Below are positions 6,833 through 60,899 of a stretch of DNA of 64,000 bases, piece by piece. A program made the position numbers and the translations under genes. The notes below the pieces were generated by a model. It was not told where the DNA came from, did not search any database, and saw only the letters and a program-made list of their open reading frames with translations. Origin of the DNA: Trypanosoma brucei (lineage: Eukaryota); assembly GCA_000002445.1 (NCBI GenBank), contig CH464491.1:4992001-5056000 (forward strand). Reading direction: 5' to 3'. Each line of letters begins with the position of its first letter. Position 1 is the stretch's first letter.

Positions 6833-8299
6833 TAATTCTAGAAGAAAACCTTTAAGCCAAAGAGTGGCTTTATTAATTAAAAAACAATTTCTTTCTGTGG
6901 TGTTTGTGTTGTTTCTACCATTTTCAGCTTTCATTTCCTCTTTAGCCTTGCAGTTTCCAGCTTTAAATTCAAACCTATCCTTATCATTGCATTCTCCATC
7001 GTCTTTTTCTTCCTTGCAATTTTCCCCATTTTTGGAATCAATTGTTTTTGTGGGCGCAACTTTCTTTTCTCCTTAAAGTTCCTTCTTAATTCTTAGACCC
7101 TCCAAGTGACTTAAAGTTGATGCCATGTTTGCGGCTGATATCAAGTCGTTGATTCTCTTATTTTCTGGTTCTCCGTCTCGCCTGAACGCAACATTATCTT
7201 CTTCGAGTTTCGTTATGAAATTTCTAACAAAGTCATTTACTTCATCACCGTAAGCTGTTGTTATGTATTCTACTAACTTTTTTGCTTTCTGGTCGTCATT
7301 TATGTCATCGAGTTCGTGGAAGTCAGGGTTGCAGTTCCGTAAGATTCTCCTAATCGTTTTGTCAGCTGCTAAAGTACTGCCTTTGAAGTTTTTCATGCTC
7401 GCTGGCTTCGGCGCCGCTGCTTTTAGCGCGAAGCAGAGCCTTTGTGCCAGATTTTCCCGTGTTGGCGAAGTTTTCGTTACCTTGTTGTGGGCTTCTTCGC
7501 AGCTTGTTGTTCGCTCCTCTTCCTTGAAGACACTTTTTTCCGTCTGAGCTGCGGCTGTATTCGATTTTGTTGGTGCCCACGTCCATGATGCGCTGCCCCC
7601 GACTTGACGAGCCGCAAGCCTCGTCTGTATGGTCTTTACGCCTGTGTTGTCCGGGCAGCTTGAACTTAATGTTTTGCCCGTTAGTTTCGTGATCTTCATC
7701 ATTGCAGCTAGCTTGCTTGCGTCCGTTAGCTTTAGTTCAGTTATCTTGTCGATGTCAATGTCATCGAAAGGGTGCGAAGTAGCTTTGCCAGTCCCATCCA
7801 GCTCGCACCCGGCGTCGCCGCCGGCAACTACCTTGAAGTTGAGTTCTACAGAGCTGCCTCCGGACGGTGCTGTCGTTTGTCCATCGTCGTGTCCGACCTT
7901 CATCGCTGCCGCTTGTTTTGTGGCTTCGACATAGCCAATGTGCTTTGTGATCAGGTCTAGAGCTTCTCTAATTGGTGTGGCGGCCCTCTGTTGCTCTCCT
8001 TTTAACTTCTCTAAGTCTTCCTCTGCTTTGCCAGCAAGCGCTAAGAGCAAACATCTTCGTCCGTGGCTGTTTGACCGAGCTGCGTGAAGTGTCCATATTT
8101 TTGACAGAGTTGTTAGCTCGGAGATAGCTGGCGATGATGTTGGTAGCTTGTTATTAAGATTTCCTTTTAGTAAATTAAGATACTGTAGTCAGTAGCAGAT
8201 GCTTTTCACTTTCTCCCTCTCGTCGGTTTGTGGCGTCGCTTCCGCTATAGCGGCTACTGCTAGTATGATCAGGCTTAGGTGCGTCAGTCGCGTTGTCAT
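6833..8299 (-). pseudogene. VSG: VSG (a-type): 489 codons in a single frame with two in-frame stops
   Basis: Signal peptide MTTRLTHLSLIILAVAAIAEA from an ATG at 8297-8299, then a TGA at 8189-8191. The N-domain is ORF 7073-8050 (TTG-initiated in the track), then a TAA at 7073-7075. The C-terminal domain continues in the same frame: GEKKVAPTKTIDSKNGENCKEEKDDGECNDKDRFEFKAGNCKAKEEMKAENGRNNTNTTERNCFLINKATLWLKGFLLEL*. Confidence 0.8.
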
Positions 8300-9398
8300 T
8301 TTGTTCTTGTATTCCCTTATGTTTTTCGGGCCAAAACAGCAGTCGATGATTTATACGACATAGATAGTTGGGTGCCGAGCGTAGTCTAGTAGGTTTGCGT
8401 CTCATGCTTCAGATGTTTGTGATTGTTCATATATTTCTATGGTGAAGCTTGCTTTTTAGTTCAAAAGCAATAGAAGTTGCTGCATATTCCACGTTTTGCG
8501 TCGTTCGCCGCTGTCTCTGCTGCCGTGCGGCGATTGTGCTCTGCTTCTGGTCATACGCGAGTGAGTTTATCAAGGGAAAGAGAACCTACCTTGTACCCTA
8601 GCGATGTGTAGTTAATTTAGTTGGTTTCACCGCTTGTTTTCAACACTGGTTGGCTGCAATTGCGGCTGCGTTGTGTATGAGAAATATATGGGAGGAAAAT
8701 TAAAGGTATTTTCCATGTCGGTTGCAGATGCTTGTTGCTTTTCATGGGTTGTTTTTGGACTTTGAGTTGTTCAGTCGAGCTTTTTAATCGCTGAAAGATG
8801 TGGCTGAGCTCTATATTACTACCATGCCGCATAAAAACAATGTAGTCGATAACTTCCCTTTTCCGCTTCTCTTCTGGTCTCAAGCGCCTAAATTCTTGCC
8901 GTTCTCCTTGAAAACTCGCTTTTTGGAACCCTTTTACACTATGTATTGCTGTCGAACACGGCTTTACCTCTGCTGTCTTGCTAGTGGCTGGTGCTTTTGT
9001 CTGCTTCCTAGACGTTGTTTTTGTTTGAAAACTACTTGGTAATCTCCACATTTATTCTGGATTCAAGCATATCTTGATGACTCGCGGTCTTTTTATTCTT
9101 TTTCGTCCTTTTTTTGCTCTAGGTCTGTGATTTGATTGCATTGCATCAATTTTTCCCCAAGCTTTTTTCATGGTGCTGGCTGTTCTGACTGTTATCGCCG
9201 TGCCGGCGTGCCTGATGTTGCTTTTATTTTTACGAAACTCCTCATGATGTCCATCGGTGGTGGTGAATTGCTTTGTTAAAGGTTTTTTATTGCCTTTATG
9301 CCGACTGAAATTAACATGTGGCATTTATGGGCTACGCTGCTTGTAGACTGCTGGCCATTTCCACCTGTGAGCTTGTCAAAACCTGTGGCCTTCAAGTT

Positions 9399-9950
9399 CT
9401 AGGTTGGGAGCGTTGTTTTAACCGACAGATGTTCGCTTCTTAGCTCTGGGAAGCTGAGCGCAGGTAGCGAGTTTGATGCTGTCTGTTTTTCATTGCTGCC
9501 TTTCCAACAAGTTCCAGTGCCTCCACCTGCCGAAGTTTTGATCAGAAAATTTGTGAATTCGATCACACCACCTATTTGTTTGCCCGTGTTTAGTGACACT
9601 AGCAGTTCTAAGCGTACTGCTATCTGTAAATCGGTTAATGCTGTTTCTACGCACCGGTGGGTTTCTGCAGCTGTCTCCAGAGGTAAGGCTGTTGTATTAT
9701 TGTCTGTCGCTGCTTTACTTGCTAGAAAAGTCATTAACTGTGCTTTGTTACCTTCTAGTTCTTCCATTAGTAATTTATTTTGTTTGGTTAGAGCTACAGC
9801 AGGTATGGCTTCCAGGACTTTTGCTCCCGCGCATACTTTTTCAACTTCCGCCTCTGAAAAAGGTTTGGCTGTTTCTTCACTGCAGGGAAATGCACTGATT
9901 AGTAACACTGCCGATACCAAAGGTGCAGGCAAAACCATCGGATATGTTGA
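9399..9950 (-). pseudogene. VSG: VSG N-terminal fragment (signal peptide plus about 170 aa), truncated
   Basis: ORF 9399-10034: ...MVLPAPLVSAVLLISAFPCSEETAKPFSEAEVEKVCAGAKVLEAIPAVALTKQNKLLMEELEGNKAQL... No VSG-like continuation downstream. Confidence 0.65.
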
Positions 9951-58963: not shown

Positions 58964-59032
58964 ATAATATTAATATATACACACTCACAACATTATCCTA
59001 CCATTATTATTTATTTGTTTATTATTATTATA
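58964..59032 (-). repeat. 70-bp repeat (single degenerate copy)
   Basis: TTTCATAATATTAATATATACACACTCACAACATTATCCTACCATTATTATTTATTT. Confidence 0.75.
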
Positions 59033-59261
59033 GTCTCAATTGACATCTATAAAATGAAGAAGAATAAACAAATTATTCTAAATTAGAATAGCACTTATTT
59101 TCACACCTTATAATCCTACTGCTTTTAATATTTGTGCCTAGACGTCACTTCCATAAAATTTCATATTAAAAAAATTGTACATTTTGCAAATGTTTAATAA
59201 TAGTGTTATAATATATTAAATTTTTTGTGTTACTTCTCTAAATAGCATATTTCATAAATTT

Positions 59262-60899
59262 TCATATAATTGAGGAAAAGTCCTTAGAATTTTGAAATGC
59301 ATATAATTCTACCAAATTCACAAAATCAGCAGCCATCAGAGCGAATTTCTTATTTACAAGGAAACTGGAATCCTGACATTTGCCTTCAATCCAACCACAA
59401 ACAGCTTTTTTATCTTTAGGAATATCACTTTTTACTGCAGCGCATTCCTCAGGGTTTTTTGCTTGACTACACTTATATGTTGTTTGTCTCCCCATTTCCT
59501 CCAGTTCCTGCTTGGGTTGCTTTTTGCGCTACGTGTGTTTCGTTCAATTTGCAGTGGGGGCCTTCATTGGCATCTTTGTTTTTCCACTCGCATTTTGGCT
59601 GCTGTTCTTTGCACTCAGTTGCTTAATTTATTATTTCGCACTGCGGTTTTGCTTGTTGTTCCTGCTTGTTTTGTCCTTTTTGTTTCTCATCTCCAGCTGG
59701 TGCCGTTAGTTTATGGATCTGTTGGCTAATTTTCACCTGCTGTCCTATGTTGTACGCTTCATTTTTAGTGCCTTGAGTTGTGCTGTCAGCGTCTCTAGTG
59801 TCTGCCTTGTGGCTTGTTGTATCTCTAGCTTGTCGGCCGCACTAAGTAACTTTTGCACCCACGGGATGTTTTTGGCCGCCGCTGCATTAGTTGGGCTATT
59901 TGTCACGTACATTACACAGATTCCTGAGCCGTCTGAGCCGCTGCATCCGGTTGCGGTGTATTTCCCGTAGTATGGTTTGCCCGCTTTTGGCTGGAGCTTG
60001 CTGGTGAACGTTGCGATTTCTAACCTTATTTCTTCTTCTGTTAGCGGGGCTGTGGCTGCATCTGTGTAGCACTTGCCCGCCAGATCTTTGATTGCCGCCT
60101 GTGCTCCGTTTAGGTTTGCTGAGTTTCCTTCGTTGTGTGTCGCCTGGTTTGTTACGCACACCTTGTCGCCTCCTCCATTGTCAGTTCCGTGGCTGGCGCA
60201 AAGGCAGAACAGGTAGGCTGCAACCGTCGTCGTTTTGCAACCGGCTGTATCGCTGCCGCACAAGTTGCTGCGGCTCGTTGCGCCACCATTTTCTGTTCCG
60301 ATATTGGCTTGTTTAATTTCGTCTGTTGCCGCCGCGGAAGCCCCATAAGCTGCGTCTGTTATCAGTTTTCTTATTTTATCTTTTGACAACTCAGAGGCTT
60401 CCTGGTGCTTGTGCTCTATTGCTTGCATGACCGCGTCCGCCCTTTCTGCTGTGGGTTGTAGTTGGGATAACCACAACAGCCTTGTCTGCGTGTCTGGTAC
60501 TTCCACACCGGCTTCCTTCAGTGTTTTTCCTTTTGGCTGCTCCTCCTCGAGCTCGTCTTCGGCTCCTGTCCAGTGCTGCCAGCGTTGTTTTCTCACTTCG
60601 TCTTCTTTGCCATTTTCGGGTTTGTAGGCTGGCCTTGCCTTGCTGTCGCCTGTTTTAGCAAACTACTTTCTCCATTCAAGGCTGGTTATTGACGAGTTTA
60701 ATTTCTGAATTTGCTTGTAGACACCGGCGGCTTCTGAGATGCCTGAAATCTCCGGTATCGGCCGGTTAGCTAGCGCTAGCACATGACAGAGATCCAGGAA
60801 AAGGTGCTCGTTATCTCCCGCCGTCGCCAGTGCTCCTGGAACTTGTGATTTTAGTATTACTAATACCACTGTTAGATTTAGTAGGCTTTTAATTGCCAT
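59262..60899 (-). pseudogene. VSG: VSG (b-type), 546 codons in one frame with two in-frame stops
   Basis: ORFs 60663-60899 (signal MAIKSLLNLTVVLVILKSQVPGALATAGDNEHLFLDLC), 59745-60596 (N-domain ...SNLCGSDTAGCKTTTVAAYLFCLCASHG...) and 59262-59495 (C-terminal domain ...KAVCGWIEGKCQDSSFLVNKKFALMAADFVNLVEL...) are all in the same frame, separated by stops at 60663-60665 and 59745-59747. Confidence 0.8.

What the first reader, a model, noticed from the sequence alone, without database searches (positions are those of the whole stretch)
6833..60899. Six VSGs are full-length single-frame genes inactivated only by one or two nonsense codons
The cases are as follows.
- VSG 6833-8299: TGA at 8189-8191 and TAA at 7073-7075.
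- VSG 23129-24700: TGA at 24092-24094.
- VSG 26519-27988: TAG at 26948-26950.
- VSG 29594-31183: TAG at 30995-30997.
- VSG 52899-54617: TGA at 53628-53630 and at 53580-53582.
- VSG 59262-60899: stops at 60663-60665 and 59745-59747.

In every case the signal peptide, N-domain, C-terminal domain and GPI region stay in one frame. These could be young pseudogenes, sequencing errors at single bases, or donors that one short segmental conversion would rescue. They are the most likely contributors to mosaic VSG formation.
Basis: seen in the sequence. Interest (0 to 1): 0.5.

Follow-up and report, generated by a model that had tools for sequence, protein, structure and literature searches.

The report
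Silent trypanosome coat-gene pseudogenes
These are six decayed, silent copies of the Trypanosoma brucei surface-coat (VSG) gene in a subtelomeric gene array; this is an ordinary, long-known feature of the genome, only one of the six is really broken by a single stop codon, and that one has apparently already been seen supplying pieces to expressed mosaic coats.

Summary
The window is a T. brucei subtelomeric VSG array, with about 20 cassettes, all on the minus strand.

[quoted passage not shown] holds for four of six genes at best.
- **23129-24700:** the only clean case, with one TGA, complete domains, a canonical GPI signal and an exact 3'UTR 16-mer.
- **29594-31180 and 6824-8299:** single-frame, but conserved Trp or Cys residues are lost. 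The second also has a degenerate GPI tail and no flanking elements.
- **26519-27988:** also has a 1-nt deletion in the GPI tail, shared with a T. b. equiperdum copy and therefore older than its TAG.
- **52861-54584:** has a CTD frameshift plus a further TGA.
- **59262-60899:** has two frameshifts, a TAA in the shifted frame and a lost terminal stop.

Expressed VSG proteins, very probably those of Hall et al. 2013 from TREU927 infections, share blocks of up to 152 identical residues with gene 23129-24700. They never carry its stop or the window-specific residues beside it. That supports the mosaic-donor idea for this gene.

This is already-known biology, so interest is low.

The parts
6824..8299 (-). 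VSG pseudogene 1 (VSGsur-like NTD, short 4-Cys-type CTD). In-frame TGA at 8189-8191 (codon 37) and TAA at 7073-7075 (codon 409). Single frame. One CTD Cys is lost (DGCEF becomes DRFEF). The GPI tail is degenerate and extended (…NKATLWLKGFLLELIL*). No 16-mer downstream and no 70-bp core upstream.
23129..24700 (-). VSG pseudogene 2 (A-type NTD, two-subdomain CTD). Its only lesion is a single TGA at 24092-24094 (codon 203). Canonical GPI signal (…DSSFLVHKNFALSMVSAAFMALLF*). Exact 16-mer at 23047-23062. 70-bp core upstream at 26224-26249. It is a donor of blocks found in expressed mosaic VSGs.
26519..27988 (-). VSG pseudogene 3 (VSGsur-like NTD, 4-Cys CTD). TAG at 26948-26950 (codon 347; AAG/Lys in relatives). 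A 1-nt deletion in the T-run 26533-26536 turns the canonical …FLLL* tail into …FYYYK*. 16-mer with 2 mismatches at 26428-26443. 70-bp core upstream at 29239-29264.
29594..31180 (-). VSG pseudogene 4 (A-type NTD, two-subdomain CTD). ATG at 31178-31180. TAG at 30995-30997 (codon 62; Gln in the 76%-identical relative P0054). Single frame. Conserved CTD Trp residues are replaced (CKW becomes CKC, CGW becomes CGR), and there are extra Cys. The tail is …AAAFVSFMEI*. 16-mer with 2 mismatches at 29479-29494. 70-bp core upstream at 33644-33669.
52861..54590 (-). VSG pseudogene 5 (B-type NTD). TGA at 53628-53630 and 53580-53582 in the NTD. Frameshift near 52959-52965 (G-run) in the CTD. A further TGA at 52918-52920 in the shifted frame, which ends at 52861-52863. 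The GPI tail is truncated and degenerate (…NKKISLICFRLY*). No 16-mer downstream and no 70-bp core upstream before the next cassette.
59262..60899 (-). VSG pseudogene 6 (B-type NTD). TAG at 60663-60665 (codon 79; Gln in homologues). Frameshift near 59757. TAA at 59623-59625 in the shifted frame (Lys in homologues). Second frameshift near 59486. The ancestral stop after …NLVEL is now TAT (59301-59303), which extends the tail by 13 residues. 16-mer with 2 mismatches at 59203-59218. 70-bp core upstream at 62525-62550.
18754..20280 (-). Two in-frame TAA codons (19957-19959 and 18976-18978). GPI-like tail …DFSFLLNKKLALIAAGFMSLVAL*.

Best explanation
The six features are silent 'array' VSG pseudogenes in a Trypanosoma brucei subtelomere. 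The strain is TREU927 or something very close to it. [quoted passage not shown] After duplication, each copy picks up its own point mutations and small indels.

The six sit at different stages of decay:
- one gene with a single nonsense codon (23129-24700);
- three single-frame genes with nonsense codons plus missense or terminal damage (6824-8299, 26519-27988, 29594-31180);
- two genes that also have frameshifts (52861-54590, 59262-60899).

None can make a coat if copied whole into an expression site. They can still contribute through templated segmental gene conversion. Stretches of a silent copy that resemble the currently expressed VSG are copied into it, and only products that leave out the lesions survive. 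Damaged C-terminal parts are bypassed by keeping or importing another CTD ('3' donation').

Shown here: the anatomy and lesions of each gene; independent decay of related copies; and blocks of gene 23129-24700 present in expressed VSG proteins without its stop.

Inferred from the literature: the recombination mechanism, and use of the other five genes as donors.
For: Array identity:
- 70-bp repeat cores occur at 15 sites against 0 expected.
- The VSG 3'UTR 16-mer occurs at 11 sites against 0.08 expected, all on the minus strand.
- Pfam VSG A-type, B-type and C-terminal domains are found across about 20 cassettes.

Lesions:
- Stops.
- Frameshifts in genes 5 and 6.
- Tail deletion in gene 3.
- Lost conserved residues and degenerate tails.
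- Missing flanking elements for genes 1 and 5.

Ancestral sense codons at the stops:
- Gln at gene 4 codon 62.
- Lys, AAG, at gene 3 codon 347.
- Gln and Lys at the two stops of gene 6.

Independent decay of related copies. A T. b. equiperdum block about 90% identical and colinear over 7.2 kb carries copies of genes 3 and 2.
- Its gene 2 copy has CAA at codon 203 but its own 1-nt insertion.
- Its gene 3 copy has AAG at codon 347 but its own TAG at codon 291 and a 1-nt deletion, while sharing the shifted tail.

Mosaic use of gene 2:
- AGQ49840.1 is 96% identical overall, with identical runs of 152, 113 and 59 residues.
- AGQ50292.1 is identical over the last 73 residues, including the window-specific M513 and M519.
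- 0 of 15 related expressed clones carry the stop or the window-specific residues at 114-115, 223, 226 and 239-240.

Literature:
- Only about 5% of array VSGs are predicted to be fully functional.
- 43 of 103 identified donors were pseudogenes, repaired by mosaicism and/or 3' donation (PMC3708902).
- Mosaic formation is templated, driven by homology, and limited to family members in the N-terminal domain (PMC13233330).
Against: - Strain identity is inferred, not read from a record. Exact look-ups of two apparently intact window VSGs found nothing.
- The link between the AGQ498xx-AGQ502xx proteins and Hall et al. 2013 rests on the accession series, the date and the organism name, not on the records themselves.
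- Blocks shared with expressed clones were compared only at protein level. In principle they could come from an unsequenced, near-identical second copy rather than from this locus.
- No expressed relative was found for gene 6 among 26 hits.
- Genes 3 and 4 were searched only against a library of cluster representatives, which would not show expressed clones.
- Genes 1 and 5 were not searched in a public database at all.
- Frameshifts that lie in short homopolymer runs could be assembly errors. This applies to the G-run of gene 5 and the A-rich run of gene 6. The window contains a 100-N gap.
Confidence: 0.9

Rival explanations
1. The stops, and perhaps the indels, are base-calling or assembly errors, and the genes are really intact.
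For: - The window has an assembly gap at 16181-16280.
- Several indels lie in short homopolymer or low-complexity runs.
- No read data could be examined.
Against: - At least thirteen separate disabling lesions in six genes, plus many damaging missense changes, would all need to be errors.
- The shifted tail of gene 3 recurs in an independent T. b. equiperdum assembly.
- The EATRO1125 ORF 1125.5444 begins at the first Met after the gene 2 stop and is 303/306 identical.
- Expressed relatives never include the stop-flanking, window-specific residues of gene 2, although they include its other blocks.
- Published annotation finds about 95% of array VSGs defective (PMC3708902).
Confidence: 0.04
2. 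All six are very young pseudogenes, each one mutation away from function, so a single short conversion or reversion would restore a working VSG.
For: - Gene 2 fits. It has one TGA and otherwise complete domains, a canonical GPI signal and an exact 16-mer.
- Each stop that could be compared with a relative differs from a sense codon by one base: CAG to TAG, AAG to TAG, AAA to TAA.
Against: - Genes 5 and 6 have frameshifts and further stops.
- Gene 3 has an older tail frameshift, shared with a copy only 86% identical.
- Gene 1 has lost a CTD cysteine, its GPI tail and both flanking elements.
- Gene 4 has lost two conserved CTD tryptophans.
- Relatives of gene 6 in EATRO1125 are themselves mostly truncated ORFs, so this family has been decaying for some time.
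Confidence: 0.05
3. The in-frame stops are tolerated or decoded (read-through, selenocysteine at TGA, or reassignment), and the genes are functional as they stand.
For: None from this analysis. Four of the listed stops are TGA.
Against: - All three stop codons occur as internal lesions, and the same three also terminate the apparently intact VSG ORFs in the window.
- Expressed relatives have ordinary sense codons at the gene 2 position.
- Two of the genes also need frameshifts.
- From general knowledge, T. brucei uses the standard nuclear code.
Confidence: 0.01

Closest known systems
Full-length VSG pseudogenes of the T. brucei TREU927 silent archive (Berriman et al. 2005 and Marcello & Barry 2007, cited from memory; figure of ~5% functional array VSGs quoted in PMC3708902)
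   Same: - Subtelomeric tandem cassettes on one strand.
- 70-bp repeats upstream and a 16-mer in the 3'UTR.
- Complete NTD+CTD architecture interrupted by in-frame stops and/or frameshifts, or carrying atypical GPI signals.
   Different: Nothing substantive. These six appear to be ordinary members of that class.
Pseudogene donors of mosaic VSGs in chronic TREU927 infections (Hall, Wang & Barry 2013, PMC3708902)
   Same: Gene 23129-24700 behaves like an 'N'-class donor, meaning its defect lies in the NTD. Its blocks appear in expressed VSGs alongside blocks from about 90%-related family members. The stop is replaced, and the CTD is often swapped by 3' donation.
   Different: - I could not determine which of the paper's numbered sets or gene IDs it corresponds to.
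- Donor use of the other five genes is untested.
Break-induced, homology-templated mosaic formation (Smith et al. 2026, PMC13233330)
   Same: It gives the likely mechanism by which such silent copies are used: short templated insertions from family members, with the donor left unchanged.
   Different: That work used the AnTat1.1 family in EATRO1125 and Lister 427. It also shows that flanking repeats and UTRs are dispensable for donors, so the missing flanks of genes 1 and 5 do not exclude them.
Silent cassette or pseudogene archives in other pathogens (Anaplasma msp2, Borrelia vlsE, Neisseria pilS; listed in PMC3708902)
   Same: Non-expressible silent copies serve as templates for segmental conversion into one expression locus.
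   Different: Those archives are small sets of promoterless partial cassettes. Here the archive consists of hundreds to thousands of once-complete genes at various stages of decay.

Membership tests
T. brucei VSG gene | N-terminal domain homologous to VSG type A or type B | tested here: met
   - PF00913 covers the full model length in genes 2 and 4.
- PF13206 covers 5-350/351 of 352 in genes 5 and 6.
- Genes 1 and 3 have no Pfam hit, but each aligns end to end in one stretch with VSGsur (PDB 6z79/6z7c), at E=4e-12 and 2e-31.
- Genes 1 and 3 also align with full-length VSGs P0196 and P0055.
T. brucei VSG gene | Cysteine-rich C-terminal domain | tested here: met
   - PF10659 covers 1-104 of 104 in genes 2 and 4.
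- It covers 1-96 in gene 5 and 1-104 in gene 6 only after frame correction.
- Gene 3 has the 4-Cys short CTD, like P0055.
- Gene 1 has 3 of the 4 Cys.
T. brucei VSG gene | Hydrophobic 17- or 23-residue GPI-addition signal ending close to …LLF* | tested here: inconclusive
   - Canonical in gene 2.
- Near-canonical in gene 4, which has one Glu.
- Degenerate, shifted, truncated or extended in genes 1, 3, 5 and 6. Mean hydropathy of the last 12 residues is -0.35 to 1.8, with 2-3 charged residues, against about 2.1-2.7 and none in expressed VSGs.
- No GPI-signal predictor was available.
T. brucei VSG gene | Conserved 16-mer TGATATATTTTAACAC in the 3'UTR | tested here: inconclusive
   - Exact for gene 2.
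- 2 mismatches for genes 3, 4 and 6.
- Absent at up to 4 mismatches for genes 1 and 5.
T. brucei VSG gene | 70-bp repeat upstream of the cassette | tested here: inconclusive
   - A core motif lies 1.2-2.5 kb upstream of genes 2, 3, 4 and 6.
- No core was found between genes 1 or 5 and the preceding cassette.
T. brucei VSG gene | N-terminal signal peptide after an ATG | not tested
   - An ATG followed by a hydrophobic stretch is visible in all six.
- That of gene 5 is weak (MFLELAITFVSAS).
- No predictor was run.
Full-length VSG pseudogene (archive class) | Complete VSG architecture interrupted by in-frame stop(s) and/or frameshift(s) | tested here: met
   - Met by genes 1, 2 and 4.
- Not met by gene 3, which has a terminal 1-nt deletion.
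- Not met by gene 5, which has one frameshift.
- Not met by gene 6, which has two frameshifts.
Mosaic VSG donor | Gene-specific blocks present in expressed VSGs, with the lesions excluded | tested here: met
   - Gene 2 only: identical runs of up to 152 residues, gene-specific CTD blocks in 3 of 15 clones, and stop-flanking specific residues in 0 of 15.
- Gene 6: no expressed relative among 26 hits.
- Genes 1, 3, 4 and 5: not testable with the searches left.

The most novel reading that the evidence does not exclude
Full-length VSGs disabled only by premature stops may be an over-represented class kept by second-order selection. Five of about 20 cassettes here are single-frame (counting 18754-20280 and gene 3, whose frame holds only up to its last codons), against three apparently intact ORFs. 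On this reading a stop would keep an otherwise complete antigen out of early whole-gene switching, while leaving every segment in frame and available for late mosaic assembly. My data do not exclude this. They do not favour it either, because four of the five also carry other, apparently neutral decay.
Probability: 0.04. Interest if true: 0.45.

Novelty: already known. Interest (0 to 1): 0.1.

Why it matters
It matters little beyond annotation. VSG pseudogenes with in-frame stops and frameshifts have been described since the genome paper, and their use in mosaic coats is well documented.

The useful products of this check are:
- a corrected lesion map of the six genes, which shows that manual single-frame translation missed three sets of indels;
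- a concrete example (23129-24700) linking a window gene to published expressed mosaics;
- a small natural experiment showing that related copies in two T. brucei lineages decayed independently, with a dated order of lesions in one gene.

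Tried and rejected
- **Exact look-ups.** I looked up two apparently intact window VSGs to identify the source assembly. Nothing was on record, so strain identity remains an inference.
- **Concatenated word-index query.** Genes 1, 3 and 4 in one query returned no hit. The exhaustive representative search later found relatives 76% and 62% identical. One search was therefore a tool artefact, with candidates crowded out, and says nothing about homologues. 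It cost one of the three capped searches.
- **Shared stop in the T. b. equiperdum paralogue of gene 2.** I tested whether the stop was ancient and shared. It is not: the paralogue has CAA there and a different lesion.
- **A counterpart of gene 4 in the same equiperdum locus.** I found none, because the cassette order differs there.
- **NTD paralogues inside the window.** Only the 3' CTD-coding ends cross-match, so no mosaic partner lies within the window.
- **Stop-codon read-through or selenocysteine.** Considered and rejected without a test, on general knowledge and because the same codons terminate intact VSGs here.
- **Matching gene 2 to a numbered donor set in Table S1 of Hall 2013.** This was not possible without gene IDs or nucleotide records. 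Set_10, with three A-type donors about 89-90% identical of which two are 'N' pseudogenes, looks compatible, but that is a guess.
- **Marcello & Barry 2007.** The paper could not be opened.

Full report
**What the window is.** The plus strand is T-rich. All long open frames lie on the minus strand.
- The core of the T. brucei 70-bp repeat occurs 15 times on the minus strand, against none expected.
- The VSG 3'UTR 16-mer TGATATATTTTAACAC occurs 11 times at up to 2 mismatches, against 0.08 expected, again all on the minus strand.
- Pfam assigns VSG A-type (PF00913), B-type (PF13206) or C-terminal (PF10659) domains to ORF pieces across about 20 cassettes.

This is a subtelomeric VSG array of Trypanosoma brucei. 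Database relatives are all T. brucei-group VSGs.

Expressed VSG proteins AGQ49833-AGQ50292 share long, perfectly identical blocks with one window gene. These are very probably the cDNA clones of Hall et al. 2013, from mice infected with TREU927/4. The window is therefore TREU927 or something very close to it. This is an inference, because exact look-ups of two intact-looking window ORFs found nothing on record.

The frames are real. Each has 1-2 internal stops over about 490-570 codons, while the other five frames have 8-43. Stretches of at least 440 codons with at most 2 stops occur at 11 loci on the minus strand and nowhere on the plus strand.

The second half of the claim, that signal peptide, N-domain, C-domain and GPI region stay in one frame in every case, does not hold throughout.

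**Gene 2 (23129-24700)** is exactly as described.
- It has one TGA at codon 203.
- The A-type NTD covers model positions 3-367 of 367 and the CTD covers 1-104 of 104, each in one stretch.
- Its GPI signal is canonical (…DSSFLVHKNFALSMVSAAFMALLF*).
- It has an exact 16-mer 67 nt downstream and a 70-bp repeat 1.5 kb upstream.

**Gene 4 (29594-31180; the ATG is at 31178-31180, not 31183)** is also single-frame.
- It has one TAG at codon 62, where a 76%-identical 512-aa relative (P0054 = AAA30247.1) has Gln.
- Its CTD has lost two conserved tryptophans (CKW to CKC, CGW to CGR) and gained cysteines.

**Gene 1 (6824-8299)** has no Pfam match. It still aligns in one stretch, 29-486, with VSGsur, and over 9-487 with a 487-aa VSG. 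The frame claim therefore holds. Beyond its two stops:
- it has lost a CTD cysteine (DGCEF to DRFEF);
- its omega-site region and hydrophobic tail have decayed, and the tail runs on (…NKATLWLKGFLLELIL*);
- it has neither a 16-mer nor an upstream 70-bp core.

**Gene 3 (26519-27988)** aligns without a single gap over 480 residues with the 488-aa EATRO1125 VSG 1125.498. That protein has Lys at the TAG position and ends …KKAPLLLAFLLL*. Gene 3 ends …KKAPLSGMFYYYK*.
- DNA alignment with three other window tails places a 1-nt gap in the T-run 26533-26536.
- Restoring one T gives …MFLLL*, with the stop aligned to the others.

The GPI region of gene 3 is therefore not in frame to the end.

**Gene 5** fails the claim.
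- The -1 frame continues from the same point as …RGKDGEPEPEKETC*NVSFIVNKKISLICFRLY*. This is the normal end of this CTD type; compare …WRKGNDGETDEPDKEKCRNGSFLATKKFALSVVSAAFVALLF in P0030.
- The spliced CTD covers 1-96 of 104, and the score rises from 49 to 76 bits.

Gene 5 therefore has two NTD stops, a frameshift at a G-run near 52959-52965, a third TGA at 52918-52920 and a truncated tail.

**Gene 6** fails more clearly.
- The stated frame has eight internal stops, not two.
- The reading switches frame near 59757 (…LKALKMK|AYNIGQQVK…). It passes a TAA at 59623-59625 and switches back near 59486 (…GNGE|TTYKCSQAKNPEEC…).
- Five homologues read straight through both junctions. They have Gln at codon 79 and Lys at the TAA.
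- The spliced CTD covers 1-104 of 104.
- The tail also runs 13 residues past the point where the T. b. equiperdum relative P0036 stops (…NLVEL*). The codon there is now TAT.

It is in one frame from ATG to a GPI-like tail, with two TAA codons.

**What the lesions say about age and errors.** A locus from T. b. equiperdum (GCA_003543875.1, CM010678.1) is colinear with window 29231 to 21996 at about 90% identity over 7.2 kb, intergenic DNA included. It carries copies of genes 3 and 2.
- Its gene 2 copy has CAA where the window has TGA, and is broken instead by a 1-nt insertion about 120 nt upstream.
- Its gene 3 copy has AAG where the window has TAG, and is broken by its own TAG at codon 291 and a 1-nt deletion. 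It shares the shifted tail: …APLSGIFYYHK* against …APLSGMFYYYK*.

The copies have therefore decayed independently. In gene 3 the tail lesion is older than the nonsense codon.

For gene 2, the EATRO1125 ORF 1125.5444 is 303/306 identical and starts at the first Met after the stop. This is what one expects if that strain's allele is also interrupted upstream, though I could not see its DNA.

Together with the number of independent lesions, this makes sequencing error an unlikely general explanation. 'Young pseudogene' is tenable only for gene 2.

**Mosaic use.** The search with gene 2 returned AGQ49840.1 at 96% identity over the full length, and a 25-member cluster at 91%. I aligned 15 of these expressed proteins to gene 2.
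- Identical runs reach 152 residues (259-410) and 113 residues (1-113).
- Gene-specific blocks appear in a minority of clones: VS at 325-326 in 2 of 15, GSLP at 453-456 in 2 of 15, and the second CTD subdomain at 474-496 in 3 of 15.
- One clone is identical over the last 73 residues, including two residues that no other fetched expressed clone carries together (M513 is in that clone alone; M519 is in one other).
- Residues specific to gene 2 near the stop never appear: HS at 114-115, V223, T226 and NL at 239-240 are found in 0 of 15 clones.
- The stop position itself reads V, A or L.

This is the expected signature of segmental conversion, with selection against the defective segment.

It agrees with Hall et al. 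They found that 43 of 103 identified NTD donors were pseudogenes, expressed through mosaicism, 3' donation or both.

It also agrees with Smith et al. 2026. Mosaic formation there was templated repair, and N-terminal-domain donors were restricted to family members. Neither 70-bp repeats nor UTRs were needed.

What makes a silent VSG a likely donor is having relatives, not having few lesions. Within the window, only CTD-coding 3' ends cross-match, so partners lie elsewhere in the genome.

For gene 6 no expressed relative was among 26 hits. For genes 1, 3, 4 and 5 the question is open.

**Comparison and verdict.** These are ordinary members of the well-described class of full-length VSG pseudogenes in the T. 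brucei silent archive, of which only about 5% of array genes are thought fully functional. Nothing in the anatomy departs from that picture.

All the stops are real. Four of the six genes are essentially single-frame, and only one is strictly 'nonsense-only'.

The genes are pseudogenes and potential mosaic donors, and this is shown for one of them. They are not mainly young, they are not artefacts, and they are not privileged donors.

Novelty: already known. Interest: about 0.1.

Noticed in passing
window 14875-16280 (-), within 13881-16741: A 432-aa ATG ORF with several C2H2 zinc fingers (Pfam zf-C2H2_4 and zf-C2H2) sits between the two halves of a B-type VSG pseudogene. NTD model positions 23-153 lie at 16292-16741 and positions 204-350 at 13881-15035. 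The ORF abuts the 100-N assembly gap at 16181-16280. From memory, the ingi retroposon encodes C-terminal CCHH fingers, so this is probably an ingi-type insertion into a VSG, with the rest of the element collapsed into the gap.
   Followed up: partly
window 21996-29231 and 36711-46063; L002 (GCA_003543875.1 CM010678.1:145703-166626): In T. b. equiperdum the block homologous to window 29231 to 21996 (genes 3 and 2) is joined directly to the block homologous to window 46063 to 36711. The junction lies in 70-bp repeats, all at about 90% identity. Cassette order therefore differs between the two genomes, and gene 4 has no counterpart there. This looks like array rearrangement at 70-bp repeats, or the two loci are paralogous duplicates.
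   Followed up: partly
window 34983-36422, 43069-44562, 46315-47820 (all -): Three VSG ORFs have no internal stops (479, 497 and 501 aa). The first has a canonical tail (…SVVSAAFVALLF*) and an exact 16-mer. The other two have atypical tails (…LLLAFLLDFINL* and …LVLAFFLR*) and may belong to the 'atypical' class rather than being functional.
   Followed up: partly
window 12885-13741 and 61133-61880; also ORF 37317-38009 (-): An element of about 850 bp (72-82% identical between copies) lies just upstream of two VSG cassettes. It contains an ORF beginning DGSDVIVSDGNKYE… with no Pfam match. A third related ORF is at 37317-38009. Its nature is unknown.
   Followed up: no
window 22186-22350 and 33842-33857 (-): Orphan 16-mers, each followed downstream by 70-bp repeats, have no full VSG upstream. 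At 22272-22350 there is a short stretch similar to CTD-coding sequence. These look like VSG 3'-end fragments lying between cassettes.
   Followed up: no
(method): The word-index homologue search returned nothing for a 1548-aa concatenation of three VSGs. Relatives 62-76% identical do exist, so long concatenated queries crowd out true candidates in that tool.
   Followed up: yes
one search hits P0028, P0029, P0031, P0032: The closest EATRO1125 relatives of gene 6 (74-79% identical) are all truncated ORFs of 328-501 aa. This whole B-type subfamily therefore seems to consist of pseudogenes in that strain as well.
   Followed up: no
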